NCBI GenBank assembly: GCA_040954595.2
Contig: CM082585.2
Coordinates: 8,201,404-8,265,403 of the forward strand
Reading direction: 5' to 3'
Source of the DNA: Balanoglossus misakiensis
Lineage: Eukaryota > Animalia > Hemichordata
Length of the DNA: 64,000 nucleotides
Part shown: positions 31,101-48,400 of the stretch, one piece after another
Layout: each line of letters opens with the position of its first letter
Numbering within the stretch: the first letter of the stretch is position 1
Translations under genes and position numbers: made by a program
The notes under the pieces: model-generated
The model's input: only the letters and a program-made list of their open reading frames with translations
Databases searched by the model: none
What the model was told of the DNA's origin: nothing

Positions 31101-34032
31101 TCGGCTTTTAGGTGAGACAGGTAGAGACAGACACAAGCAGCTAGTAATCGACTTGTCTGGTTACCGTGGAAACCCTCATCAATCAATACACTTGGTTACC
31201 ACGGCGGCCGAAATTTCACGGCTCTCTGAAATAAGCGCCGTTGCCTCTTGATGCGCAAGTCTTCGAGATTCTAGAACGTTTCTGCCAAACCCGGTCCAAA
31301 TTGGGAGTACATAAAACGGGAGTTTAAGTAGCCAGTCTTTACAATAAAAAAAATGAGGCTAGCTATCTGTGGCATGTGCGTTTGCCTGTTTCTTTATTCA
31401 GAGCACACACGAAACTGTTGGTGTCGGAATGACATCATGTCTGGTTTTCCCAACCACCTCACAATACACACTTTATTCTTTGTTGCCATGGAAACTTTTT
31501 TTTCTCACATCTCAATGGAGAGTTATGTGGTTTCAACAGACAGGTGAGTCTGCCCCAAAACCAGTCATCGACACATCTCCCAGAACACCTATTCCTTATT
31601 TAGGTCAACAGTAACATAGACGATTTGGAATCTTTTGATTGATCGCAATCTGAAAATAGTTTGTCTATGGATCCCATTGTCTTAATTCTGCTTGTACTGT
31701 TACTGCTGCTGCAACTTGCACTGAATATGAGAAGGGTGTTTTGTTGCGTCTGGTCAACCAATCAAAACATCTGGAATCTGAGAGGCGTTATTTATGACTG
31801 AAGTCTGCACACTTGACATTGCATGAGGTCACCAAAGGTCAAGTTGTCTGTCATCTCGAGAAAAAAATAAGGTCAGCCTTTGTGGGGGAATGCATAGATG
31901 CTGTGCTATATGCAGTCTTGTTTCACAATATTGGTAATCTGAATTCGCAACATGTGTATGTATATGACCGCCGGTGAATATGGCATTATTTGATTGAATG
32001 TGGACATCAGTCTCAGAGTAACATAGCTTATCAAACTAGTCTTTTGCATGCTGTTGAGCATTGTTAAGACTGTCAGATGATAAAATACTGCCTGCAAGGT
32101 AGATCTCCGGAAATGATAAAAATCACTGATTTAATATCGAGGCCTTTCTTGATTCATTACAAACCCTATCAAGATTTTTTTTATCACCCTGATAATTCGA
32201 TAACATTAGTATGTGCTAGCATAATGGATATTTTCCACATTTCCATGAACTGACGGACAAATTTGATCAGACATAAAATATCTTTAAATTTCGATTTTTT
32301 TTGTGGGCCACTGAAAGATGTCTGTGTTCAGAAGTATAATATGGTTTCTAGGGAACACATGGAAAAGCATCATCAACAGACATAATACCAAATCACTGAT
32401 GAAGCCATAATATCACAGACAGGGATGAATGTCAAATGATCCCTGTCAGCCATACTAAATAATTACATAGGTGATTGATCATGCTTGTCATTACTAGATG
32501 TATAAACTTTTCCCCACTTTTGTTTAATTATACATTGGATGGATTACTAGCAATACAATAATGCCCTCTCATTGACAGAACCTAAAAAATAAACTTCCTC
32601 AGAACACATCATCAAGTGTTTAAATTTTTTATTATATGTAGTTCTGGCGGCAGGTCATAGCAGATGAAACCAGTCATAATGGAGATTGAGGGATTTCAGG
32701 GAAAAGTGTTTCATGTAGTGTTTTCAATTTTGCAATAGTAGGTCTTCTGTTAGATTGGTTTATACTTATCATGGTGGTGCACGGTACCAATGATTTTTGT
32801 TGTGTTTTGGTACTTTTTAAAGATTTTTATCGATTTATCTTCGAAGAGAGAAGCCAGAATGTTTTCATTAATTTTTAACAATATTTTAGTTTTAAGGTCA
32901 TGACTGGATTTTTTTCTGGATTTTGAAGGGTGAAGACAGCCATAGCAGAGATTTCATCTGCTTCTCGTCTGGTCTTCAAGCACAGGAGATTGTTTCCGGA
33001 TTGACACTGCTTGATGCGAAAATTTGCCGCTTTGCCAATCGACCCCCGCTCCAAATTTCACATTTCGGGACTGATATATGAATAGTCTGTTTGCGTCAGA
33101 AGTGATATTTTACACCGGCACTGCCCCCACAGTGTTGTTTTAAACAAGGCAGCATGTGGCATTGAGGAGAGTACGTGCTCAGCTTGCGTTGCCGAGAGGC
33201 AATGAGGAGAGAGAGAGAGAGAGTGGGGAATGAAACGTGTCTGGATTTGGCAGCAGGAGTATAAATGTCTGGTTGATCTGTCTGCATATGTACATTCAGA
33301 CAGTCCGTGTTTTGACAATAAATACACGGCACAATAGAAAGTGACATTGAATCTGGTATTACTGCATTTGCGCCTACAAAGAATAACCTTGGTGGGCGTG
33401 GGTTGATTACTGTTGGCTTTGATAGAACATTAACATGCACTATTAAATCCTGGGGGCCGAGTTGGCCAATTTTCGTGACAGCTGCGAAAATCAAACAGAA
33501 ATATGTCGGAATATACAAAACAATATGTTGCGGTGTGCATGAGCACGACATGGTGAAAACTACACCCTAATGGAAAACAGACCAAACGAATGATTTGGCA
33601 GGGAAGGTTCTTTAACGGTGAAATATTCAAATAAACGGCTGTCCTTGTATGAGTGGCCCTGAAGGGAGACGTCACCTTTCACATGCAGATCGCTCAGACA
33701 AAATCTAAATATATACCTGTGATTTGGTGGGGTAGTATGTATGTCAGCTGTTCTCGCAGTTGCGATTGTTGTTAATGTACTATGCGACATACCCGGAAAA
33801 TGGGACAATTTTGCCTGGATTAGGGGAAAAATATTAGAAACATGAAGATAAAATGTGAGTCAGTGTGTTTTATATTTTTCAAGGTTAATTCCAGTGGCAG
33901 TGCACACTGTATGTACCTGAACTGAAACGTGGGAGGGGTTATATAGCCAAGCAAGAACTATACCTGCCACTGTTATTTTTGATAGAAAGACACTATTAAT
34001 TTTATGTCTTTCTCTTTTTTCTTATTCCGCAG

Positions 34033-34408
34033 GTTGCAAGCAAAGCCATTGTGAGGTGCTAATAGTTTAGAGTGAAGCAGTACCCAGATTTGAGTTCTCC
34101 CCCTGGTATGCAGTTTTACTAAGTGCTCCTACATTTCAGTCGTATACGTCTTATAAACGTATAAACCAGTCAGCCAGAATTCATGAATGACTTGTGACGA
34201 GACAATAAGCAATATTCACTGTTCTTTTTTCAAAGTACTCCAGCAAGCCACAATAGCAGCAGTTCCGATTCCCTTTTGACTTGGCTGGGCAGTCCAATTT
34301 TTCCACTACTTGGGCTCTTTACGCTTGCCGGCTGAAGCTCTATGCTAGCTCCATCGCCGCTTATATAAGTACTGGTTTTTAGGATATATCACACACAAAA
34401 ATTTTATT
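34033..34408 (+). other. MBNL: MBNL 5'UTR part of the first coding exon (exon 34033-34567)
   Basis: Strong polypyrimidine tract and ccgcag acceptor ending at 34032. Several short uORFs precede the ATG at 34409. Confidence 0.7.
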
Positions 34409-37400
34409 ATGGCACTGCGGGACAATCGATGGTTGACACTTGAAGTTTGCCGAGAGTTCCAGCGTGGAACATGTACGAGGCCCGACACTGAGTGCAAGTT
34501 TGCCCATCCATCCAAATCCGTCACAGTAGAAAACGGTCGAGTTACTGCTTGCTTTGATTCGCTTAAGGTATGTATAACATCGTCCCAAACCCAGGTTTAA
34601 GCTCTGACTGCATGGTCAAGTCTTAATTAACTTTTTTTTTTCTTTGCTGCAATCATTGTATTATTTTTTTTATTTTTTTCTCATTGTTCGAACGCTTTGA
34701 CTGACCTGGCTCATTGCATGCATGTCCTAAATGTGCAGCAATGCTTCTGTATACAGCTGAGGTGATAAAAATACCAAAAAAGAAATCCATAATTTTATGC
34801 ACGTATATGGATAACTGTCCAGAATTTGCCATCTATTTCTAAAAAAAATAAATATTGGTACAATGCAGCTACTGCTAAAATCTACACAACCACAGAATAT
34901 TACAATGTCTGTTGCCATAACATCACATTTCTGTTGCAGCTGTCGGTTCTCACAAGTAACTGGTTAAAAAGTCCACCTTGACTTCTGATTTCTTGCCAAA
35001 TATAGCACTGTGGCAACAAAGCAAGTCTCGGTTTCCACAGTAACATGTATATTGGTTTTTTCGACCGCCATTAAAGATGGATGCCTTCTAAGAATGCAAG
35101 AGAATTTCTTGGAAACCTACACTGATCAACTTTCAGTCTTTCTGGTGAAAAACATCTCTGCAAATGTTTTCACAGTTTTTCAGCACAATGATGCGGATTG
35201 CTTGCAGAGTGTAAATTATTTCACAAATGTTTGTTTTGTCATAGTTGGATGAACTATTAATTGATTGTGAAGTACAGACTAAAGCAAATAGTGGTAGATA
35301 GGTGGTGATATATGGTAAACTCCTCTCTTAATATCAGAATTTAGAAACTTCAACCATGGATTTGAAGATGAGAAATGGGTTGAAAGTTATAATATTATGA
35401 AATTAGCACAGTGTATCTGTAAAACTTCAAAAATAAAAATTCTTACTAAGAATAGGTAACGTACAGTACTTCTGGTGTTTGTTCTTTTGAGGTTTGTTAA
35501 AAAATTCAAATGTTCATAGAAGACTTAGCTCGAAGTGTACTCATTGGTGTAAGTCGATCAATGTACTTTTAAAATGAAAAAAATTCCTAGAATCTGAATC
35601 GCAATGTCAAATTTCCAACCTTCTTCATCATAGCTTGCGGTGTTACTGTTTAATCATGATATCTGATCATATTGTTAATGATCCCATGTCGTAGGTCAAG
35701 TTGAGCCTGTTTGCATTGTATTAAAAAATCCACAGTGTGCCCTTGTTGTTGCTATGTTTAGAATTTGTGAAGGGAGGATGTTCGTGACCTGATAGTGATA
35801 TTCAAAAAGGTCACGCCATTATTTGGGGCTGTCTAGCTTTGAGGCCTTAATATAAACAACAATAAATACCCCCAAAATAGCACCATAGTTTCCCTGAGGA
35901 AATTTAAACACATATCAAAGTAACATATTATTTGAAATTACAAACAGTCCATTCGCTGAAAATTTGATACACGCTGATTTTCTGGGAAAAAAGGGTGTTT
36001 TTTGCTCAAGGCAATCTTGTTAAACGCTTACTTTACCGCCAGTCAGGCAAATAGTTCTCAAGCAGGCAAATCACTCTCTAGACTTTCATTTTTTTCTCTC
36101 TTTAGACTACACAAGAGTGTCTGGCTGAGAAAAGCTTAAAATAGAAAAAACAGCATCGCCGTTATTTCCCTCCGTCATTTATCACAGTGTTAATGGTGCG
36201 AAAGACTACCAAACATCACATGACATGCCAGAGATTTGGTCATTTGCATAAAATCCTGATCAGGCAAAGTAACTGAAGAAGTACAGGCATTGACTCAGAG
36301 AGATGCTATTTGCAGTCAGACAACTTGGCAACCCATTTGAATGTCTGGGCCTCAAGAACGTTGAACTGTTAACACGCTGGACTTATTTAAACTATTTGCG
36401 ATTCAGACATTCCCGTTATATTTCAGTATCAGTTAACGGTGGATTTTCTTCTAGTGGTTTACTTTGTGCTGTCTGGGGCGAGAGCACTAAGGATATAGCT
36501 CTGCATTTCTAGTACACGGTAGTTCCTTCGGCGAGTCTGGTGAGATGACTGACAGCAGTCGTGCATTAATAGCCTCAAATATTCGACACAACCGCTCTGA
36601 GATTAATTTGTTTTAAGAGGTCATCCATGTGACTTTTTGTAATAATTTTGACGGTAACCACTTTTTTGAAAGGTGCTGAATTTGACAAGAATTACAAAGT
36701 GTTCATCATTTCAGTGAAGGAAAGCATAATCGGTATAAAATATAATCTGTAAATTAGTGTAGAAGTCAGATAGTACATAATTTGCAGTCATCAAATATTT
36801 TGTAAATGGAAATGTTTAATATATTAGAGAAGGGATGATCCTGACATTTAATTAATGTAGACCTAACCAAACTCTCTTTCATGCAGTCATCTCCAAATAT
36901 CATAATACAAACATAAATGAGCATCTATCTTGTAAGAAATACAAAGCCAACAAATCGATGTCTGTTTAACTTCTCTCACACATTATTTCCTTATTTTTTC
37001 TTTGCCCTTCATTTTTGTTTTCGAATTTTCGCCCGCAGGGTAAGTGCACCCGTGAAAATTGTAAATATTTACATCCGCCGGCGCATCTGAAGAGCCAACT
37101 GGAGATTAATGGACGCAACAATCTAGCGGCTCAAAAGATGTTACAACAGTTACCGTTCCAACCCCTGGTGCACGGGCCGATGACAACACACGTGGTAAGT
37201 GGCACTGACCATCCCCGAGTCTACTGGCCACCATTACATACTCTGGTACAAGGGCCAGTCACATCGCAGGGGGTAAGTGGTACTACACTAGATACAAACG
37301 CCTCGCAGCTCTGCCATGCCAGCAGCCTTCGCTTGCAATATAAAGACCAGCTGCCAATAAATACTAAAAGAAAGGCAAGTAGTTCGGACGGGGGAGGGGG

Positions 37401-40400
37401 ATTTATACATTCCCCATTTTGGCCAGTGTTGTGGGCTTGCGAGACAGGGAAGCTTAGTAAAGGTATTTTGTTAAAATCGGCAGCTTGTTTCGGCCACGCA
37501 TTGCAGTGATTGTTGCAGATCATGTTGGCTTGGTGTGGGTGCAGGGTTTTGGGCCAGTGTAGTCACATCAACCAGTGAAGGCCACGGTTACGGGTGGAGC
37601 AGTGATCGGATGTTTCAATTCATTTTGCCAGCTATGGGCTGGATACAACACAAGGCTACGCCTGGAATTATTGCCTCGAATTTCCTTTTGTTCACTCTGG
37701 GTAGTTCACAGGTCATATTTGGTTTCATAATAGCAAGTTAAGATTATTCTTGACTTCAAGCAAGACTGTTTTAAAACAGCTCTAAAGCCACGTAATTTTG
37801 AGTTCAGTGGCAGGGTTTGGGGCTATATTGCTGGTAACATCAGCAAAACAAGATGACATTTTGTGATTTGGGTCCAAGTTCATGTCTAAGTACAGTTACC
37901 ATGTGTGTTTATTTGTGGTGTTGCTAGGTCTGCTTTGTGTGCAGCTTAGATTCACAGAGTGTCTGTTTGTGTCTGCATAAAGTGTTTGGAACAAGCCCTT
38001 ACTGTTTTGTTTTTGTGTTTTTTTGTTTTGTTTAAAAGCAGGAATTGGAAAGGCACCTGGGGTGGTCACCTTGGTTGATGGGGTCGGGGGTGGGTGTGAA
38101 TTTTAATTTGCTTTGCTGATATAAATGCTTGAAATTTTACGATAGATATGATATTTTGAGTGATATGTGTACAGATCATGACCAGTTTTGTGAGATTTAC
38201 CTGTGTTGGGAGTGTTACAGAAACAGTCATCTTGGTTGAATTTGCAAGATATTCCGATTAGTGTGGAATTATTAAGTTATACTTTCATTCCTCAGACAAT
38301 ATTTGGCCTTGTCTGTGGAATTATGACACAAAATAATTGGCCATCACTTTCATGCCCTTGACATGATCACAAACCACTGACAAAGCACATTTGTCCATTT
38401 TACATTCTTCCAGAATCCACAGTTTGTGAACTCGCCACCCGTGACAACTTTCAATCCATATCTCGCCCACACACCAACTTTGCCCAATGACAACCTACCG
38501 TTGAACGTTCCTGGCCTGGTCCCCACTCCACCAATCATGCCGCAGCAGAAACTGCAAAGAAACGACAGACTTGAGGTAAGTGAACAGAAATCTGATGAGT
38601 CGCTTTGAAGGATTACAATCACTCTCGTTTCATTTCAGTTTTCAGAATAATTACAGGTATAACCCAAAGTCTTGTATAAGGCAGTAATGATGGACAAAAA
38701 TTGAGGCCATCTTTTCTGAAAATCATCATGCATGGTCACATTAAAGGTATACAGTCACCTCCAATTTACATACGCCCATATATGGCTGAAATGGAGTATT
38801 TGAGCGTTCTAAAGAACATATAGTGGCGCTCTATTTTTCGCATGTGCCAACCACTGAAAATCAGTGATTGGCTAGATCTTAATTTGCCATGGTAACTACA
38901 GCTAATTTTCCATAGGTGACCCGTATACCTTTAAATTGACCATGTAGGTTTTGCTTGGTAAAAATACTAGTATAATGAATGAATGCTATGGGTTTTTTCC
39001 ATCCTGAATATTGCATGGAAAAGAGCCTGATTGTGATTAAACGAGTATTTCACGCTTTCACTTCTCCGCACAGGTCTGCCGCGAGTTCCAGCGCGGCAAC
39101 TGCACTCGCGGCGAGAACGACTGCAAGTTTGCCCACCCGGGGGAGCACGTGACCATCGACACCACGGAGAACAGCGTCACCGTCTGCATGGACTACATCA
39201 AGGGGCGCTGCTCCCGCGACAAGTGCAAATACTTCCACCCACCACCGCACTTACAGGCACGCATCAAAGCTGCTCAGCATCAGGCTTCGCAGGCGTCGGC
39301 CGCCGCCGCAGCTGCGGCCATGGTATGTACCGAATAAAAACCCGGCACTCGTATCTCGTTTTCGTTTGCATCTTATACTAGTCTCCATTCGTTTTGAAAC
39401 AGAAAATGAGATCAGGAAACGACGACCAAAATCTTGCATGTGATTGTCGTGTTTCATGAGATTTTTATATATTTCTCATATCATGTGTTAACCATTTCAA
39501 ATCACTAGTAGACTAGACTAGATGTCAATTTGCTCATCATCTCATGCCTTTTTTATATAATTTTTGTTTAAAATTTTAAAATTTTATTTTGGTTGCGGTT
39601 AACAAATGCTGAGCTCGCGTAATCGTGCATAAAAATGTTTCTATACTCTATCAAAGTGTCTCTGTCTGTCTCTTAAATGCTAGCTGCTTTGCTGCTCTGC
39701 TGTCATCTTCATCTGACTTTCACACAAAATATAAAAACCCTCCCGTCCAACAAAATTTAATGTTGAATGTCATAGATTTTCTTCACTTGGTACACCAGTG
39801 TAACTATATGGTAAATTGTTGTCAATAAGGAATGCGAACGGCTGATGAAAACCTTGCAAAATCAACAATAAGCATTTAGCAAATTTAAATAAAGTTCCAC
39901 TGGGATAAATGTCCTACTTTGTAAGATAAATATGACAATTTTGATCATTTGCTATATGATAAAGGTTATTTCCACCCTCAATAAAATTTACCTTATTGGT
40001 TACAGTTTTTCAATAGGACTGATTTATTGTAACAAAGTGTAACAAGCACTGTTATAACATGTATCACAATGTGGTACAATGTAACACACTGGTATACAAT
40101 GCAACTGTTACTGTACAATATAACTGTATTGTACAACATAATAGTGTTATGCAATGTTACAGTTAACATGTAACAATGTGATACAGTGTAACCATATAAT
40201 ATACAATGTAACACTGTGTTACTATGTGGTATTATACAGTGTACATCTGTAGCAAGTTGTTACACAATGTTACAATATCAATTGTGAAACATTGGTGTAC
40301 ATGAATAACCACACACAATTTGTTTTCTGTCAATAACTCAAACATGTTTTGATTTTTGGCCACGATGTGAAAGTTTGGATGTTGCCTATAGCTTTGTCTG

Positions 40401-43400
40401 TCTTCACACTAAAAAAACTAACCAAAAAACTAACACCCTAAAAAAAGCATCATCCGTGCAAATATGAGTTGCCCTGCTTCCGAAACTTTCAAAACCATCA
40501 TTTCATTTAAAATCTTAATGTTTGCATTTAAATCTTGACATTCTCACTCGTGATTTGCAGATATGTATCGCCATGGCGATAGTATATCTCAAATCCAATG
40601 TCATTGTTGAGTGTTTCAGTTTGCTTTTTTATTTTCAAATCATTAATTTGTGTGTATGTTGTTGACTAGTTAGCTTGTTTTTTAAGTTGCTGGTTGAATG
40701 AATATAATTTCCAGTGTTTGTTGTTAATTGACTTTCTCTGTCTTCTTTAGTTCAAGCACCGCTGTTGTTTTTAATGCATGTATTATAACGGGTAGTGTTT
40801 TGACTGGTTGGCTTGAAGTGGAACAGTGCACCGTTGAATACTAGCGTATACTGTTTTAGTAGACGAATCATACAGTCAAGTAAAAATCTATCTGTGTATA
40901 TATGTATATATCTCAACGGAAATCACCAACCAACCGATAATTTAGTTGGCTTTTTTTCTGGGGATGAGTGGAGAGCAATGCATGTACGGCTTGTCAAAAA
41001 CTGCCACGCCCACACAGATGGATATTTCTGATCGTTTGAAAAAAAAGAAAAAAACCAAAATCCAATGCTTATACACTCTTCACTTTGTTTCTCATTGACA
41101 TAAACACCATTGGGAAGCAGGTAAATTCTATACATCACCAACAAAATTTGACCACTGTTCTTGCCTTTCTTCAAATGTTAAAACATTACCTGATTGCACA
41201 CAAATGTCTGTACTATAACTTGCTTTGTAAAAAAAGAGAAAATGAACTTGATTACATGTTTATATTACATTGCGTTGTTTGATGAGAAAGGCAAGAATGT
41301 GTTGTAAAGCGGCCTTGAAAAGGTGACTCTGCATGCCTGGTTTCAGGAATATATAGAACACCTAGCTTTGAATGAGCAGGCCGTTACATTTTTTTATTTT
41401 TTCTCTTTTTTTTTAAAACTTCGATATCACAATCAAGCTGTTTATATTTACATGTTGGGCAATGCATTGTTCTTTCTCTGATATAGGCTTTGACTGTTCA
41501 CCACAGACACCATTGATTGCATGACTGTTCACTTACATCCTCCCTTTTGCTCTTTTTTTGTTTCCCATGATGCATTGCTGTGCTTGCTGTTTATGTTAAT
41601 GACTCTGCCTGTCCCATGCTGCAATCCCATTGGCCCATTGCCATCATGTGCTACGCATACTAATAAGCTTCCGACCACGCCTGATAAGAGCAACAAGAAG
41701 CGAGCCAGAGACCCTGCCGATGAGATTATACTGGTACTGACTTGTCCTTGCTTATGTACATTTCATACCTGATTAGATTTGGAGAAAGAGAGAGAAAAAA
41801 TTAATCAAATTGACATGATATGAATTGATGAATTTTGACTATATGATGAAAAAATCAGTGATTTCATTTTGATTTGTTTGTAGAAGTTTTGTAGAAGTAG
41901 ATTAATTATTAATTGATTTCATTTTTGATTGAGACACGTTTTCAATGTTGAAGTATCATGATAGCCAAGCTGAGAGGCAGCCAAATATTTTATGATATCG
42001 TCACAGGGCTGTGTGATAAAATCTATTATAACATGGCTGCATGATCAGATGATATTACACATATATAGCATGGCAGCCTAATAAAATTCATATTCCGCGT
42101 ACATGTAAAATTTATACTGCATGGTAGTCAGATAAAACTCTATGTTCTATTGTTGTCTGATAAACTTTGTTACATGTGGAACAATTTATATGTGCTTCAC
42201 AATGAAACTGATAAAATGGCTGCCTTATATCAGATTAGAAAGCGAGAAAAATATTTTGAGTGATTTTTGAGAAAAACAAATGATTGTTTTAATTAAATTC
42301 CTTTGCCATATTTTTGTATTTCTGTAGGCACTTCCTGGTATGATACCACTGAAGAAAGGTCCTGGGGCAATGTTTCAAGGTGCTAACGCGTATCAACAAG
42401 CCTTGGCTAATTTTCAATTTACACACCAACCTTCACACTTTGTACAATCACCATGTAAGTGTGTGTATACAGAACGATATCAGACAACATAATCAGTATG
42501 TTTTGGGTTGAGTATTTGTCAGGAAATTTAGGTCTATCACAGTTCTATCATTAGACGTTCTATCATGCAGGTTTTTCAATTACAAATGGCAAATTTGTCT
42601 GCAGTTAACGACTGCATGTATCAAATTCAAAATGGCCAGTACACTCAGGGATATATGTCCATCTGTGGGGAACACTTATAATTATTGGTTTTCTCTTTAA
42701 CCAGGATAATGAACGCGTATGTTTCTTGTTTAGTTTTTAAGTTCCATACAAACATCAAAAACTGACAAGATGTTCTCTTTTCTGAAATGAATCCATGTTT
42801 GTGTGTAATGATCAGATTCTTTTTCAGATCTTAGGTGAATTTTTTCTCAAACTGGGTGTCTCAAATTCACAGTCCTTTCACCCCGTTTCCCTGAAAGTGG
42901 TTTCAACCACACGTGATTGGAAACGGTAGAAGAACATATGTTTGTATCGCAATGTATGTTCATATTAGAGACATACTGAATGTGTCTGAACTTTACACCA
43001 AATTGATAATCACATATAAATGATATTGCATCAATTAACTCTCATCGACACAGTTAGTATTTGATGAATGGATGGGGGAACATTCATTGGAACTTGTATT
43101 GTTTTGAATCGACTGACATTGAACAATGTCAAAAAGGTCATCTTTTAAATTTTAATTCAGATGACAATGTATCCGATTCATTTGAAGTATACAGCCATGT
43201 TGATAATGTTAAGACTGCTAGAGCATTGATAAAAGTGGCAGATCATTAAAACCAACCAGATTACACCTTGAAGACAATCCCTTAACCCCCAACTTCAGAC
43301 TTGCGACAGACGTGCAAGGTCTGACGTACATGCACGCTTCGTAGAAAGAAAAATCACCACAACCTTGAGGTAATTCTGTAAATTGGTTTACGCCCTGCTG

Positions 43401-45432
43401 CGACTAAAATGATCTCCGACGATTCCAATGCTCTAACAGTTCACTGTTACAGTAGTGTTTTTCTTGACCAGTAAGTGTGCGTCTTTCTAATTTTTGCTTT
43501 TTTCTCTTTTTTTTATTTCATGATCATCTGGCTGGGTACCTGCTTGCCATTGATATATTTGCATGTTGCTGGCAAACGTTGGTTGTTGCTTGCGTCTGCT
43601 GTACGTTGTTGCTCCCTGCCTATATTATAGTTCCCATGATGGCCCCCATCCCTACTGCTGGTGCTCAGGCTGCTAGTGTGCCATACTACAATGCACAGCA
43701 TCAGGTAGAAAATTCATAGTTTCATTTTACGTTGATTTTTCTTATTACTCTAGTTACGATTTGTTGTCAGTTGATCGCAGCCGACCAGCTGGTACGGACA
43801 ATTTGCATATAAGTCATCAGTTACACCTGGCTTTACAGTGAGACAGGAGTTTCACCTTGAGGTTAATTCTGTCCCCACCTGGTTGGCTATTTACTGGTGA
43901 TGCTATGTCAGTATTGGTTCCTTTCTGAAGAATCGGAATAAATCTAACCATAAGCAAATTACAATGAATTAAATTTGTGACACGAGTATGCATAATTCAT
44001 GACCATGGAAATGATTAAATTTGAGTTTGACTACACATTCTAGTGTACTCTACAGTCATTTTTGACTGTCATGTCCCATAATCCTTTGCAGCCCTGAGGG
44101 TCAAACGGGCCCAAAAAGGAGACCAATTTGAAACGGTGTTTGTTTCGACCAATTAGAGAGGACGCTTCCTTGTGCGCTGCAGCCCGCATTTTGCAATTGC
44201 TAGTTCGCAGTTGTACTGCTGCTGCTGCTGTAAAATTCAATATGGCTGCCGAAGCCTAACCTGGTGGGAACACTGCAAAGCATTGTGGGATATTTAAATC
44301 TGCATGACAAAGGTTTTTTATGTCTGGTTATTAAATTTGGTTATTCTAGTTTAGATATACAGACTTGATTGCGTCACTTTGTTTGTTTGCCTTCAAATGC
44401 TGACTAAATGAAAATTCCATCTCATTTTTTCAGTTGGCAGAAACTTTGCCTGTATGTCGTGACTTCAAGGCGGGAAATTGTAAGCGGCCAAACTGTCGTT
44501 ACGTACATTTAACTGAAGGTGAGTCTGGTTAGAGTGAGCAGTTTACAATGCAACCGGGCTTCCAGACTTTGTGATGTGGTGTCAGCTAAAACGCCAAACC
44601 AAATTGACTAATTTGAGGTTTATTTATAGCACATCTGAGATGAATTTGTGCGAATTTTCATTGCGAACATCATTTAGGAAGGAACATGGAGAGGGTACTT
44701 GATTGGCACGCCATTCAAGCCTGCATTATCACTTCACAACTTGCATGGAAAAAAAAATGCATGCAGTGAAATACATTAGGACTCTGTCATCTAAACCGTC
44801 AAATATGACGATATGAGCTGTGATCAGTACCGGCCGAACATTAAAACAATTCAGCTTTGTTTTAATCATCAAGTGGAGAACCCTGCCTGCATGTGAGCTG
44901 TTTTTCGTTGTGTAAATCATGATACAGATGGACTTGACGAGTACACACGATCTGTCTGCTTTTAGCTTAGCACTGTATTAACAATCGTTATTGTAATCTC
45001 TTCCATATAGATTATGTAGAAGTTATAGATGGTAAAGTGACTCTTTGCCGTTATGCGGCACAAGGCAGGTGTACACGACCCAAGTGTAAATTCTATCATT
45101 TACCAACAGTTCACAGTGGTGCAAGCGTTCCAACTTCGATACCAGTTCCAGTCGTCACAATGACGGTGTAAATTCCTTCGTCTGATTTTACTCTTTTTTT
45201 TTCCTGTCTATGAATCAATGCATTTTTTCTATTCAACAGTGTCCTTTTTTATTTCTTTTTTTTCTTTTTTTCTATGTACATGGCAGATCATGTAGAAGTA
45301 GTTGATGGTAAAGTGACTGTGTGCCGCGATGCTGCAAAAGGCAAGTGCACCCGCCCCCTCTGCAAATATTACCACATCCCAGTCCATTTGTTGGCTCTAC
45401 AAGCTGCTGAATTGAATCGGCCCGGGTGCTAG
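34409..45432 (+). CDS. MBNL: Muscleblind-like RNA-binding splicing regulator with six CCCH zinc fingers (~407 aa with all cassette exons and terminal exon B)
   Basis: Exons: 34409-34567 ([33 protein letters not shown]...VTACFDSLK); 37039-37194 ([29 protein letters not shown]...); 38414-38575 (...[11 protein letters not shown]); 39074-39322 ([21 protein letters not shown]...[32 protein letters not shown]...AAAAAAAM); 41668-41733; 42328-42454 (...YQQALANFQ...); 43631-43704; 44434-44518 (ZnF5); then 45011-45171 or 45287-45432 (ZnF6). All junctions are GT-AG with consistent phases. [13 protein letters not shown] and LEINGRNNL are diagnostic for MBNL. Confidence 0.96.
38745..38930 (+). mobile_element. 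Kolobok-type MITE, copy 1 (186 bp), in an MBNL intron
   Basis: TTAA|AGGTATACAGTCACCT ... AGGTGACCCGTATACCT|TTAA; homologous to 50249-50435. Confidence 0.9.
40025..40280. repeat. Degenerate low-complexity TGTAACA/TGTTACA-type repeat
   Basis: Recurrent tgtaaca, tgtacaa, tgttaca and tacaatg units. Confidence 0.6.
41507..41667 (+). promoter_or_regulatory. MBNL autoregulatory intronic splicing element (AG-exclusion zone, distant pyrimidine tract, YGCY cluster)
   Basis: No AG from 41507 to 41665. The pyrimidine tract is at ~41536-41566, followed by about 8 YGCY motifs up to the acceptor. Confidence 0.85.
41668..41733 (+). CDS. MBNL: MBNL 66-nt cassette exon with basic NLS-like motif (counterpart of vertebrate MBNL1 54-nt exon 5)
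   Basis: [22 protein letters not shown], phase 0/0, with an AAG acceptor (ctaataag) and donor CTG|gtactg. It lies between the poly-Ala-Met exon and the YQQALAN exon. Confidence 0.85.
43476..43630 (+). promoter_or_regulatory. Second AG-free, YGCY-rich 3' splice-site element upstream of the 74-nt MBNL exon
   Basis: No AG from 43476 to 43628. Branch-like tttctaat at ~43484-43491, then a U-rich tract, then tgcttgcc, ttgctg, ttgcttgcg, ctgctg and ttgctccctgcc. Confidence 0.7.
44434..44518 (+). CDS. MBNL: MBNL exon encoding a fifth CCCH finger
   Basis: ttttttcag|[28 protein letters not shown](G)|gtgagt; spacing C-x7-C-x4-C-x3-H; in frame with exon 43631-43704. Confidence 0.88.
45011..45171 (+). 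CDS. MBNL: MBNL alternative terminal exon A (ZnF6a)
   Basis: ccatatag|[53 protein letters not shown]; phase 1, intact CCCH. Confidence 0.75.
45287..45432 (+). CDS. MBNL: MBNL alternative terminal exon B (ZnF6b)
   Basis: Long U tract, then ggcag|[48 protein letters not shown]; phase 1, intact CCCH. Confidence 0.85.
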
Positions 45433-45452
45433 GCTAGTCTGCCTTATATACC

Positions 45453-45480
45453 GCCAAGCCAAGCCAAGCCAAGCCAAGCC
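45453..45480 (+). repeat. (GCCAA)5 repeat at the start of the MBNL 3'UTR
   Basis: gccaagccaagccaagccaagccaagcc. Confidence 0.9.
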
Positions 45481-48400
45481 TGTGCTCACAGCTGTGGGGA
45501 AATATCGGCATGTTCGCAGAGTGATGTTTTACATTGCAGCTTCTATACGCTTGCCATGCTGAACGAGAGGGACGCTTTGCTTAGCATGGCTTTATATTCG
45601 CTACACTTCAAGGGGATTTTTCGTTTTCATTTTCATTTTTTTAAACTGTCTTTTTCTCTTTACAGTTTAAAAAAAAACAAAATTTCAGTACATGGAGAAA
45701 TAGTGAGAGCACTTGTATGTTTTCTCTTCAACATAAGTTTGACTTAGATTTTTTTGAAAAATTTAAATGATTCATCTAACAAGCTAGTTAAAACTAGCGT
45801 TTTTTTGTGTGTATTTAGCCGTCTGATATAATAAGACTTATTTGCCTCTCAAAAGAGACACATTGAAATGAGTACGTTCCTCTTCTGTGACTTTTTTTTA
45901 CAATATTATTTTAGGATGTAAAAGTTATTTTGAAAGTTAGAGAATTTTATAATGTTTTATTTGTTTATTGATGTATTTTCTCGGACTTACCTTGAGATGA
46001 GACCGGAGGGAGGGTCAAAACGGTTACCGCGGTAACCACGGACAATGATGACATGCGACCTGCCATAGTGGGTGTGAGCCACAAGGGTTTCACCCGAAGT
46101 AGAACCTAAAACACAAAAGATAAAAAAGTACATCATTTTGACATAGTGTAGCTATTAACTGCCATCGATCACAGATATAAAAGTTCTCAAGGCTACTTGA
46201 AGAACAGAATCAACGACGTACTTAAAAAAAATTACTGCATGAAAAAAAATAATTGGATGGCATGGCTGCCTTAACTTTCATGTTGTCATGGCAACTCGTC
46301 ATAGCATGAATGAAATCTATCAATGCTGCGATTTTTCAAAAAAAATGCATAGTGCTGCATTATGCTTTTTAAATGTTTTTTGGAAGAAAAAAATAATAAT
46401 GATGAAGTTTTTAAGATTAAGTCAATTTACAATTAAATTGTAATCATTTAACCAGAGATGGTGGAAAACTGATTAACAATATTGAACATTTTTCAAATAT
46501 GTGATTTACAATGGAGGGAATATAGCTAGTACTATATTATAATTGTGCACAAGTAGTGTTCTTTTTACTCCGAAAGCTTATTAAATAATTGCATGAGTAA
46601 CAACTGGGGACTGCTGTTTTTATTGCTGAAAGACAACTCCACAGATTTTTTCCCCTCAACATAATTTTAGAAACAGAATTTCTCATATTTTGAAAAATGT
46701 AACAATATAGAGAGGTGTATGTTTTTATATAGCTTAATAACAGACAATATTTGATTCAATTAATTTGCTGTGCATCTTTTTTTTGGTCTCCAAGACATCT
46801 TTTCTTCTTCCATAAATGAATATTCAAACATTACAAGGTTTTTTCAGAATCCAGTTTATGTAGTAGTGTACATGTAAATTAAACCACTGCTGTTAGTCTT
46901 TGTTTGGAGTGACTGCTTTTGCGAAATGTGGGCCTGCCTCGAAAAATAACAGAATGTCAAGTGGCACTGAAGAGCTCAAAGCTTATGGTGTATGCTTCTT
47001 CACAGATGAATATTTATATATTGGTCCGAGATAAGGAGATATTATGAGAAAAAAATGATTTCAAAAGAAATGCTTATTGAAATTTTGAACGTGGACACTT
47101 TGTGATATGCTTTTGTCCATAAAAGCAATAGCAGAATATCCTGAGAGCAGTTATTAACAAACAAATAATAACACTGTATGCTTATTGTCATGTATCTTTG
47201 TTTGTTTCCACTGTCTTTCTATTCATGAACACTTAAAATTTTGAGAAAACATAAAAAAAATAATGGAATTTTTTTCTTGAATTCTCTCTGAAGGGTGCTT
47301 TGAGACAGAATACGATTGTAAATGTCTTCGGCTGGGCTGCACGTGCGCACGTACAGGGCTCCGTAGTCATGGCGTCATTGTGACCGCGCAAAAAGTCTTT
47401 AAAAACCGCTCCTGTGTTGTGCCAAAATATAAATTGTCACGTCAAGGCTTTTTCTAAGTTGACTCCCTCGAGCGAGTATCGTAGGTGCCACCCAGCCGAT
47501 GACAGACTTCTATAGAGGTTAATACTGATGCACCATTACACAATTTATAACCACCAGTAACCGTAGCAACCAGTTATTCAACGATGTGTGTTTTTTGACC
47601 ATTTTATTACAGTAGGATTATACTAGTCACGTTTGGATTTAGGGTGCATCATATTACCATCAGATTTACAAACACCTTGACTTTAGACTTAAGGATTAAG
47701 GATTAATAATATAATTATTAAGTAGTGGATTATGGTGTCTGGTCTGTAGTGCTGCATTCTATGTAGGTTATAATACAAAGCCATTACGAAAAAAAAAATT
47801 ACTCCAAAAAAGTGTAGACGTGTGTATCTATCTATCTATCTGGGAGATTTCAATGCTCACCGAAAAACAGTCACTGCTAAAATAGTATCAGTAGTTTTCT
47901 AGATGTCCGTATTTTGCTGCATTTTTGTGTCCGATTCTTGTCAGAAAAAAAAAATTGAAATCTCAAACACCTGCTTAGCGATGGTAGTTCACCCAATCAC
48001 AATGCTGCAAAACGTCATTGATAGTAGCTGACTTTAACCAACAAACTATGTATTTAAAAAAATACCACACGAGTACTACAGTATATAAGCATCAACTCAG
48101 TCAGTGTATTTTTTGACATCATATGACGAAAAACGAGTCTATCCTGTAGCATATGACTCTAAAAATCAGTCGGCTTTTCTTGTGTGCATTCATTTCTATG
48201 TACTCTGAATAACCAGACAATAAAAGGCAGAGTATCTATAATCAAGAATTGTTGTCTTGCTCCTCTTTTTGTTCCTTCAAGTCCCAATAGATGCCACACA
48301 TACATTTGCATCCTTTGCATGGGTTTACTTTCAAACTTAGATTGGTTCCTAATGTGGTATACACAAACTTTCCTCATTCAAGCCTAGCCACATTTCGTCT

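What the first reader, a model, noticed from the sequence alone, without database searches (positions are those of the whole stretch)
44434..45432. Muscleblind with a third zinc-finger pair (six CCCH fingers)
Seen in the sequence: beyond the region that forms the vertebrate low-complexity C-terminus, the gene continues in frame into ZnF5 ([18 protein letters not shown]), a DH/YVEV.DGKVT linker resembling the ZnF1-2 linker (VTVENGRVT), and ZnF6. Established: vertebrate MBNL1-3 have two pairs with x7-x6-x3 then x7-x4-x3 spacing. This third pair has x4 spacing in both fingers. Inference: it is a third RNA-binding module, either ancestral and lost in vertebrates or lineage-specific. I recall a six-finger muscleblind in placozoans but cannot verify that here.
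Basis: partly seen in the sequence, partly recalled or inferred. Interest (0 to 1): 0.85.

Follow-up and report, generated by a model that had tools for sequence, protein, structure and literature searches.

The report
Ancient third finger pair of muscleblind
This acorn-worm gene for the splicing regulator muscleblind encodes a third pair of zinc fingers, predicted to bind RNA, that is also found in sponges, corals, insects, hagfish and land plants and so is likely an ancient part that jawed vertebrates lost, and here the last finger exists as two alternative exons.

Summary
Confirmed. The window holds the muscleblind gene of an acorn worm (97% identical to Ptychodera flava models). Eight GT-AG exons run in frame into ZnF5, then into one of two duplicated last exons, ZnF6A or ZnF6B. 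All 10 P. flava isoform models carry the third pair (5 with 6A, 5 with 6B). The pair is not lineage-specific: it occurs in a sponge, corals, protostomes, echinoderms, amphioxus, tunicates and hagfish, so the loss is in jawed vertebrates, not all vertebrates. Six-finger relatives also occur in streptophyte algae and land plants; their third pair groups with the animal one (99/94 and 100/96 support), although a 2016 paper states that plants lack muscleblind. The predicted fold matches MBNL tandem fingers and keeps the RNA-stacking aromatics, so YGCY binding is likely but untested. ZnF6A, with Tyr replacing a nearly invariant Asp, is shared by hemichordates and echinoderms. A 74-nt frame-shifting exon behind a long AG-free stretch likely switches the pair on or off, as in fly Mbl. 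Extra fingers were seen before in fly isoforms but treated as a divergent second pair. No RNA reads were available.

The parts
34409..34567 (+). Coding part of the first coding exon: start codon, LEV box, ZnF1 and start of ZnF2
   Evidence: matches P. flava isoform models
37039..37194 (+). Exon completing ZnF2, KxQL/NGR motif
38414..38575 (+). Linker exon between pairs 1 and 2
39074..39322 (+). Exon coding pair 2 (ZnF3, ZnF4) and Ala-rich helix
41505..41667 (+). Longest AG-free stretch of the window (161 nt), YGCY-rich, ahead of the KR exon
41668..41733 (+). 66-nt cassette exon with KR motif (counterpart of the autoregulated nuclear-signal exon); absent from 4 of 10 P. flava isoform models
   Evidence: PMC10773944 passages
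42328..42454 (+). Exon following the KR exon; has KK where other bilaterians have the second KR
43474..43630 (+). Second-longest AG-free stretch of the window (155 nt), YGCY-rich, ahead of the 74-nt exon
43631..43704 (+). 74-nt exon that sets the frame for pair 3 and codes the start of its conserved N-terminal extension; skipping it would stop translation at 44460-44462
   Evidence: skipping is inferred, all 10 P. flava models include it
44434..44518 (+). ZnF5 exon (85 nt; finger 44455-44508, x7-x4-x3)
45011..45171 (+). Alternative last exon 6A: linker, ZnF6A (45046-45099, Tyr type), Pro/Val/Thr-rich tail, stop; shared with other hemichordates and echinoderms
45287..45432 (+). Alternative last exon 6B: linker, ZnF6B (45322-45375, ancestral Asp type), tail predicted as a helix, stop
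45433..45632 (+). Start of the shared 3' untranslated region: 9 YGCY motifs in 200 nt and a (GCCAA) x5.6 repeat

Best explanation
The gene is a muscleblind gene whose C-terminal exons encode a third tandem CCCH pair; this pair is likely an ancient module that jawed vertebrates lost, is predicted to fold like MBNL1's pairs, and likely binds GC steps in YGCY RNA so that one protein can hold up to three RNA sites. Shown: the exons, frame, finger spacing, and the pair's presence from sponge to hagfish and in streptophyte plants. Inferred: (1) RNA binding, from the fold and the kept stacking aromatics and arginines; (2) splicing control of the pair, because skipping the 74-nt exon or the 85-nt ZnF5 exon shifts the frame to a near stop and leaves a four-finger protein, as exon AE3 does in fly mbl; (3) a choice between two acceptors 276 nt apart gives ZnF6A or ZnF6B. 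6B is the ancestral form. 6A is a tandem duplicate that likely arose before hemichordates and echinoderms split; its Asp-to-Tyr change and different tail would alter the affinity or preference of the sixth finger.
For: Open frame and canonical splice sites. 10 of 10 P. flava models carry pair 3, 5 with each last exon. A conserved Y-x4-Q-x2-[DE] extension runs across the 43704/44434 junction in bilaterian relatives (13 proteins shown). Pair 3 in Sycon, Stylophora, Ciona, Myxine, Drosophila simulans, Trichinella, Strongylocentrotus, amphioxus, spiders, sea spider, grasshopper, damselfly, tapeworms. All 33 pair-3 rows of 89 fall on one side of a branch at 99/94; all 19 of 67 at 100/96 under a mixture model. 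AlphaFold model pLDDT 91.8; the 10 Foldseek matches with E<=0.001 are all MBNL1/2 pairs, rmsd 1.6 A to RNA-bound 3d2s. The aromatic equivalent to F202/Y236 (PMC3880588, PMC9780971 passages) is Tyr in ZnF5, Phe in 6A, Tyr in 6B. The two longest of 3504 AG-to-AG gaps in the window lie directly before the KR exon and the 74-nt exon. Four-finger isoform models without pair 3 exist in Pocillopora, Ciona, a spider and hagfish. Fly AE3 frame switch adds two fingers (PMC9352392 passages). The 7 6A-type exons group at 93/92 among 28; Tyr occurs in 5 of 89 second fingers, all 6A, where 82 have Asp.
Against: No reads were laid, so junctions and isoform ratios rest on gene models. All 10 P. flava models include both the 74-nt and the ZnF5 exon, so skipping is not seen in this lineage. 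YGCY counts before the two exons (8 each per 200 nt) are in the top 1% of window tiles but not above dinucleotide shuffles (P 0.59 and 0.22). The stop made by skipping the 74-nt exon lies 56 nt before the last junction, so the product may be degraded instead of translated. Only one of five single-domain models was confident (91.8, 70.4, 43.5, 41.5, 41.3). Most non-hemichordate pair-3 tails lack the P-x-H-L helix start that follows pairs 1 and 2, and that helix is needed for RNA binding by ZnF1-2. Absence in jawed vertebrates rests on reviews and on no named jawed-vertebrate hit, and the same search also missed hagfish because of cluster representatives. No single echinoderm genome was shown to hold both last exons.
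Confidence: 0.72

Rival explanations
1. Pair 3 is real and ancient but works mainly as a protein-contact, dimerisation or low-specificity RNA module, not as a third YGCY reader.
For: ZnF5 has x4 (27 of 33) or x5 (6 of 33) spacing where pairs 1 and 2 mostly have x6; most tails lack the post-finger helix start; Oddo et al. saw no obvious link between finger number and splicing strength; fly MBL-C and MBL-O/P act alike on circRNA production.
Against: Stacking aromatics are kept in 31 of 33 first and 33 of 33 second fingers of pair 3; fold equals the RNA-bound MBNL1 pair; the 6B tail is predicted helical, residues 391-401.
Confidence: 0.2
2. The plant six-finger proteins resemble animal muscleblind through horizontal transfer or convergence, not through descent from a shared eukaryotic ancestor.
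For: No named fungal, chlorophyte or unicellular holozoan relative among the 120 listed of 194 hits; plant pairs 1 and 2 group with each other (94/84, 98/95), not with animal pairs 1 and 2; only 67-68 columns.
Against: Pair 3 of the worm is 64% identical to Closterium pair 3 but 52% and 50% to its own pairs 1 and 2; same order of three pairs, P-x-H-L after pairs 1 and 2 and a KR motif between pairs 2 and 3; spread from Mesostigma to monocots.
Confidence: 0.25
3. 6A and 6B are consecutive exons of a seven-finger protein, or 6A is a decaying duplicate.
For: Two phase-compatible GT sites lie after the 6A finger (45116, 45119); Mesostigma has a tandem seventh finger; a Saccoglossus model splices the first 18 codons of 6A onto 6B.
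Against: Those donors are poor matches to consensus; 0 of 10 P. flava models has seven fingers; the 6A finger and the end of its tail are conserved in starfish and brittle star, where 6A ends the protein.
Confidence: 0.05
4. The third pair is a hemichordate-specific duplication of pair 1 or 2, or belongs to a separate transcription unit.
For: Linker length resembles pair 1; some database records hold pair 3 alone.
Against: Own branch across all animals sampled; contiguous six-finger models in many phyla; stand-alone records are short or partial gene models.
Confidence: 0.02

Closest known systems
Jawed-vertebrate MBNL1-3 (two tandem CCCH pairs; PDB 3d2s, 3d2n, 5u6h; reviews PMC4176163, PMC11837677, passages read)
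   Same: Pairs 1 and 2 with x7-x6-x3 / x7-x4-x3 spacing, exon layout, KR cassette exon; pair 3 has the same predicted fold and stacking aromatics.
   Different: A third pair with x4/x4 spacing and a conserved N-terminal extension follows; two alternative ZnF6 exons; MBNL1-3 are described with four fingers only.
Drosophila Mbl isoforms MblF (Irion 2012, PMC3315501, passages) and MBL-O/P (Pamudurti 2022, PMC9352392, passages)
   Same: A frame-changing exon (AE3) adds two more zinc fingers at the C-terminus. Irion gives MblF's second motif only 32% identity to human pair 2; D. simulans pair 3 is 37% identical to jawed-vertebrate pair 2 and 61% to the worm's pair 3, so that motif is likely pair 3.
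   Different: Those papers count one or two pairs per protein and do not name a distinct third pair in the passages read; no duplicated ZnF6 exon is described; pair 2 is often skipped in fly.
Ciona and Trichoplax MBL tested by Oddo et al. 2016 (PMC5041496; abstract, part 1 and passages read, figures not held)
   Same: The paper used Ciona 'Zinc-finger X1'; records of that name hold six fingers, so a six-finger MBL was likely already shown to regulate YGCY-dependent splicing in mouse cells.
   Different: The text only says finger number varies, does not test pair 3 alone, and states that plants lack any protein resembling MBL.
Public gene models of Ptychodera flava 'muscleblind-like protein' isoforms X1-X10
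   Same: Same exons, both last exons, 97% identity.
   Different: Automatic annotation only; no analysis of the third pair or of the 6A/6B choice.
Streptophyte six-finger CCCH proteins (Marchantia record named 'muscleblind'; monocot 'zinc finger CCCH domain-containing protein 28')
   Same: Three tandem pairs in the same order; pair 3 groups with animal pair 3.
   Different: Pairs 1 and 2 do not group pair by pair with the animal ones; ZnF5 mostly x5; function not known from any paper found.

Membership tests
Muscleblind / MBNL family | Tandem CCCH pairs with x7-x6-x3 then x7-x4-x3 spacing (pairs 1 and 2) | tested here: met
   spacing as stated in PMC4176163
Muscleblind / MBNL family | LEV box before ZnF1 and KxQL/NGR motif after ZnF2 | tested here: met
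   both present in the translated model; motifs from PMC5041496
Muscleblind / MBNL family | Nearest named relatives are muscleblind proteins | tested here: met
   (97% to P. flava models); PDB hits all MBNL1/2, 6 of 6
Muscleblind / MBNL family | Alternatively spliced KR exon next to a second KR motif (bipartite nuclear signal) | tested here: inconclusive
   first KR exon present and absent from 4 of 10 P. flava models; next exon has KK, in line with the Ambulacraria exception in PMC10773944; localisation untested
Muscleblind / MBNL family | Binds YGCY RNA and regulates splicing | not testable with these tools
   inferred from fold and residues only
Jawed-vertebrate MBNL1-3 architecture | Exactly two finger pairs and a finger-free C-terminus | tested here: not met
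   three pairs; not filed under this architecture
MBNL-type tandem zinc-finger domain (for pair 3) | Compact two-finger fold joined by a beta-sheet linker | tested here: met
   predicted model; top 10 Foldseek matches are MBNL pairs, rmsd 1.6-2.3 A for the crystal structures
MBNL-type tandem zinc-finger domain (for pair 3) | Aromatic residue between last Cys and His that stacks on the GC step (F36, Y68, F202, Y236) | tested here: met
   Tyr, Phe, Tyr in ZnF5, 6A, 6B; role from PMC3880588
MBNL-type tandem zinc-finger domain (for pair 3) | Helix after the second finger | tested here: inconclusive
   predicted for 6B, residues 391-401; 6A not modelled; P-x-H-L start absent from 6A and most other pair-3 tails
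Copy of pair 1 or pair 2 (for pair 3) | x6 spacing in the first finger and nesting within pair 1 or pair 2 in a tree | tested here: not met
   0 of 33 pair-3 first fingers have x6; separate branch

The most novel reading that the evidence does not exclude
Muscleblind is not an animal invention: a protein with the pair-3 module was already present in the common ancestor of animals and streptophyte plants, and pair 3 is older than the split of pairs 1 and 2. Jawed vertebrates lost it after parting from hagfish, possibly leaving a frame-shifted remnant as their last exon, so human MBNL1-3 are truncated forms. In hemichordates and echinoderms a duplicated last exon swaps in a sixth finger with a changed RNA pocket, giving a splice-controlled specificity switch.
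Probability: 0.35. Interest if true: 0.85.

Novelty: new variant of a known kind. Interest (0 to 1): 0.62.

Why it matters
MBNL proteins are central to myotonic dystrophy, and the reviews read describe the family as animal-only with one or two finger pairs. The data here say the ancestral animal protein had three pairs, that the jawed-vertebrate four-finger form is a reduction, that the 'divergent second pair' of fly MblF and MBL-O/P is likely a different ancient module, and that plants keep a relative. This changes how invertebrate disease models and cross-species rescues are read, supplies a natural third RNA-binding pair for valency and engineering tests, and makes two questions directly testable: what pair 3 binds, and whether Marchantia or moss use an MBNL-like splicing regulator. 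The 6A/6B pair is a natural near-isogenic test of one conserved pocket residue.

Tried and rejected
No RNA holder was listed for 43500-45700, so no reads were laid; this is no evidence either way. No whole genome is held for the window. Trichoplax finger number: not in the text passages of PMC5041496, and supplementary files 2 and 3 (2 of 9 opened) are pictures without sequence text. Park et al. 2017 is not held, so the role of the acidic residue changed in 6A could not be read; passages of PMC9780971 and PMC3880588 do not state it. YGCY enrichment against dinucleotide shuffles failed for 12 of 13 regions tested; only the 200 nt after the 6B stop reached P=0.023, uncorrected. Pair-by-pair orthology of plant and animal pairs 1 and 2 was not recovered. 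Two ESM Atlas look-ups gave only muscleblind-like and streptophyte CCCH clusters and did not settle taxonomy. Ten paper searches (muscleblind with 'six zinc fingers', Trichoplax, amphioxus, 'three pairs', plant and protist names, Marchantia, cnidarian plus sponge, Drosophila isoforms; MBNL with hagfish or lamprey) gave no paper naming a third pair, a duplicated ZnF6 exon or a plant muscleblind; the library lacks most subscription papers, and listings were read only by title and abstract start unless cited. Rejected: lineage-specific duplication, separate gene, seven-finger protein.
Full report
Observation. A six-frame scan finds six MBL-type CCCH motifs inside single + strand frames, plus ZnF2, which is split by an intron. 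ZnF5 is at 44455-44508 and two ZnF6 copies are at 45046-45099 and 45322-45375, all x7-x4-x3. Ten coding exons were delimited, every internal one with AG and GT ends: 34409-34567, 37039-37194, 38414-38575, 39074-39322, 41668-41733, 42328-42454, 43631-43704, 44434-44518, then 45011-45171 (6A) or 45287-45432 (6B). Either path is stop-free and gives six fingers. The products are 97% identical to Ptychodera flava models and 87% to Glandiceps talaboti, so the organism is an enteropneust hemichordate close to P. flava. No RNA run was listed and no genome is held.

Is it one transcript? All 10 P. flava isoform models (X1-X10) carry pair 3; 5 end in 6A and 5 in 6B; none has seven fingers; 4 lack the KR exon and 2 lack pair 1. 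These are gene models, not reads that I saw. Independent support: an extension of the form Y-x4-Q-x2-[DE]-x-LP-x-C, seen in most of 13 bilaterian proteins printed, runs across the 43704/44434 junction. No AATAAA or ATTAAA lies between the 6A stop and 46432, so 6A and 6B are best read as two acceptors of one terminal exon, 276 nt apart.

Distribution of pair 3. The 6B exon found 49 proteins among 58 candidates; 15 of the 49 have six fingers and 42 have both fingers of pair 3. Named taxa: hemichordates, amphioxus, spiders, sea spider, orthopterans, odonates, cockroaches, a nematode, tapeworms; no vertebrate. A profile of 8 pair-3 stretches found 1980 representatives, 150 listed. I named 10 of them by cluster: Stylophora and Pocillopora (six fingers), Ciona (six), Sycon (six), Myxine, Drosophila simulans and Trichinella (pairs 1 and 3), Strongylocentrotus, Closterium (six), Mesostigma (seven), one unnamed. 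The hagfish cluster holds a full six-finger isoform (P0280) and an independent assembled record with the same pair (P0283). Jawed-vertebrate MBNL1-3 are described with four fingers (PMC4176163, PMC11837677, passages). The loss therefore maps to jawed vertebrates. Caveat: I could not search shark, gar or lamprey genomes, and one search missed hagfish because only cluster representatives are searched.

Plants. A profile of six streptophyte pair-3 stretches found 194 proteins among 4560 candidates, 120 listed. Named six-finger proteins occur in Klebsormidium, Closterium, Marchantia (named 'muscleblind' by its source), Calypogeia, Selaginella, Ceratopteris, a record labelled Gb_26006 (Ginkgo by my reading of the label), maize, oil palm and Puccinellia; partial ones in Riccia, Diphasiastrum, Cryptomeria, Taxus and Lolium. 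No fungal, chlorophyte or holozoan protist name was among the 120. Oddo et al. write that plants lack any protein resembling MBL (PMC5041496).

Trees. 89 pairs from 35 proteins, LG+G4: all 33 pair-3 rows (25 animal, 8 plant) lie on one side of a 99/94 branch against 56 pair-1 and pair-2 rows (bootstrap not fully settled). 67 pairs from 24 proteins, LG+C20: all 19 pair-3 rows at 100/96. The worm's pair 3 core is 64% identical to Closterium pair 3, 52% and 50% to its own pairs 1 and 2. Against a simple story: plant pairs 1 and 2 group with each other (94/84; 98/95), so the three-pair layout may have arisen twice from a two-module ancestor, and only 67-68 columns are available. Rows were chosen by me for taxon spread; other CCCH families were not included as outgroup apart from four unnamed proteins.

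How pair 3 likely works. AlphaFold gave the isolated pair pLDDT 91.8 in the best of five models; all 10 Foldseek matches at E<=0.001 are MBNL1/2 pairs, with rmsd 1.6 A to the RNA-bound structure 3d2s. In a full-length model all three pairs have pLDDT about 90 or more, separated by low-confidence linkers, and the 6B tail forms a helix like those after ZnF2 and ZnF4. The aromatic that stacks on the GC step in MBNL1 (F36, Y68, F202, Y236) is kept in ZnF5, 6A and 6B, and in 31 of 33 first and 33 of 33 second fingers of pair 3. I infer a third YGCY-reading unit that adds valency. Against: the x4 spacing of ZnF5, and most pair-3 tails lack the helix start that ZnF1-2 needs for binding.

Splicing control. 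The 74-nt and 85-nt exons are not multiples of three. Skipping the first gives a stop at 44460-44462, 56 nt before the last junction; skipping the second gives a stop after two codons in either last exon. The only two AG-to-AG gaps of 150 nt or more among 3504 in the window (161 and 155 nt) end at the acceptors of the KR exon and of the 74-nt exon; both zones hold 8 YGCY per 200 nt, top 1% of tiles but not above dinucleotide shuffles. In fly, including exon AE3 changes the frame and adds two fingers (PMC9352392, passages). Four-finger models lacking pair 3 exist in Pocillopora, Ciona, a spider and Eptatretus; the Ciona and Eptatretus ones end as expected from skipping the ZnF5 exon (my reading of the ends). 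No P. flava model shows skipping. I ran these two tests after reading earlier AI notes of this scan, which are leads, not support.

The duplicated ZnF6 exon. 6A and 6B share 71 of 96 bases (second codon positions 29 of 32, third 18 of 32). The 6A exon found 9 proteins among 12 candidates: Ptychodera, Glandiceps, Saccoglossus (first part only), Acanthaster, Amphiura, one unnamed. The 7 6A-type rows group at 93/92 among 28 ZnF6 rows over 33 columns, and share a tail ending in a PVV-type motif. 6A has Tyr two residues after the first Cys, where 82 of 89 second fingers have Asp. Asp-type exons also occur in echinoderms (Strongylocentrotus, P0162), but I could not show both in one echinoderm genome. 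The simplest reading is a duplication in the ambulacrarian ancestor. What the Tyr does is not known; the structural paper that might say was not held.

What is known. Irion 2012 notes a poorly conserved second motif in fly MblF, 32% identical to human pair 2 (passages); D. simulans pair 3 is 37% identical to jawed-vertebrate pair 2 and 61% to the worm's pair 3, so MblF and MBL-O/P likely carry pair 3. Oddo 2016 tested Ciona 'Zinc-finger X1', and records of that name have six fingers; its Figure 1A, which I could not see, may draw them. Verbeeren 2023 describes the family as having one or two pairs and lists Ambulacraria as lacking the double KR (passages), which fits the KK seen here. PMC4978528, PMC11524483, PMC5888374, PMC12433705 and PMC9296551 were searched for passages and added nothing on a third pair. 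Ten library searches found no paper naming a third pair, the duplicated exon or a plant muscleblind; subscription papers and image supplements may hold such statements.

Verdict. The feature is real and already present in automatic annotations and, unrecognised, in fly and Ciona work. What appears new is its identity as a distinct ancient module, its retention in hagfish, its presence in streptophyte plants and the ambulacrarian 6A/6B alternative. New variant of a known kind; interest 0.62.

Noticed in passing
window 41505-41733: 66-nt KR cassette exon behind the window's longest AG-free stretch; counterpart of the autoregulated nuclear-signal exon, although the second KR is KK here, the Ambulacraria exception of PMC10773944.
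   Followed up: partly
window 45061-45070: A GC-type donor inside exon 6A (after 45064, phase 1) would join the first 54 nt of 6A to 6B and lengthen the ZnF5-6 linker by 18 residues; a Saccoglossus model (P0002) has exactly this form.
   Followed up: partly
window 37195-37272: In-frame 78-nt extension of the second coding exon to a second GTAAGT donor; matches the 26-residue difference between P. flava isoforms X1 and X4.
   Followed up: partly
window 34031-34567: The first coding exon has a candidate acceptor at 34031-34032, so it is likely an internal exon with a long 5' UTR part, like the circle-forming fly exon 2; two P. flava models lack pair 1.
   Followed up: no
window 45433-45632: YGCY cluster (9 in 200 nt, P=0.023 uncorrected) and a (GCCAA) x5.6 repeat just after the 6B stop; possible self-binding site in the 3' UTR.
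   Followed up: partly
P0217 C-terminus versus P0280 residues 361-367: An unnamed jawed-vertebrate-type MBNL ends in a D-x3-I-C-R motif, with the spacing seen at the start of hagfish ZnF5; the jawed-vertebrate last exon may be a frame-shifted remnant of a pair-3 exon. One sequence only; the frame argument rests on recall of human MBNL1.
   Followed up: partly
P0126 (Mesostigma): Seventh finger is a tandem copy of the sixth, a parallel to the 6A/6B duplication.
   Followed up: no
P0281, P0282 (Myxine): Models fuse muscleblind up to ZnF5 with a C2H2 zinc-finger array; probably read-through or annotation joins.
   Followed up: no
P0033 (UniRef, Liphistius): A record named as a spider toxin is a 120-residue muscleblind pair-3 fragment; likely a mislabel from a venom-gland transcriptome.
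   Followed up: partly
P0061, P0063 (Branchiostoma): Five-finger isoform models stop after ZnF5 with a different tail, apparently reading into the intron.
   Followed up: no
window 44051-44250: Intronic YGCY and CTG-rich patch (8 per 200 nt) between the 74-nt exon and the ZnF5 exon; not above shuffles (P=0.15).
   Followed up: partly
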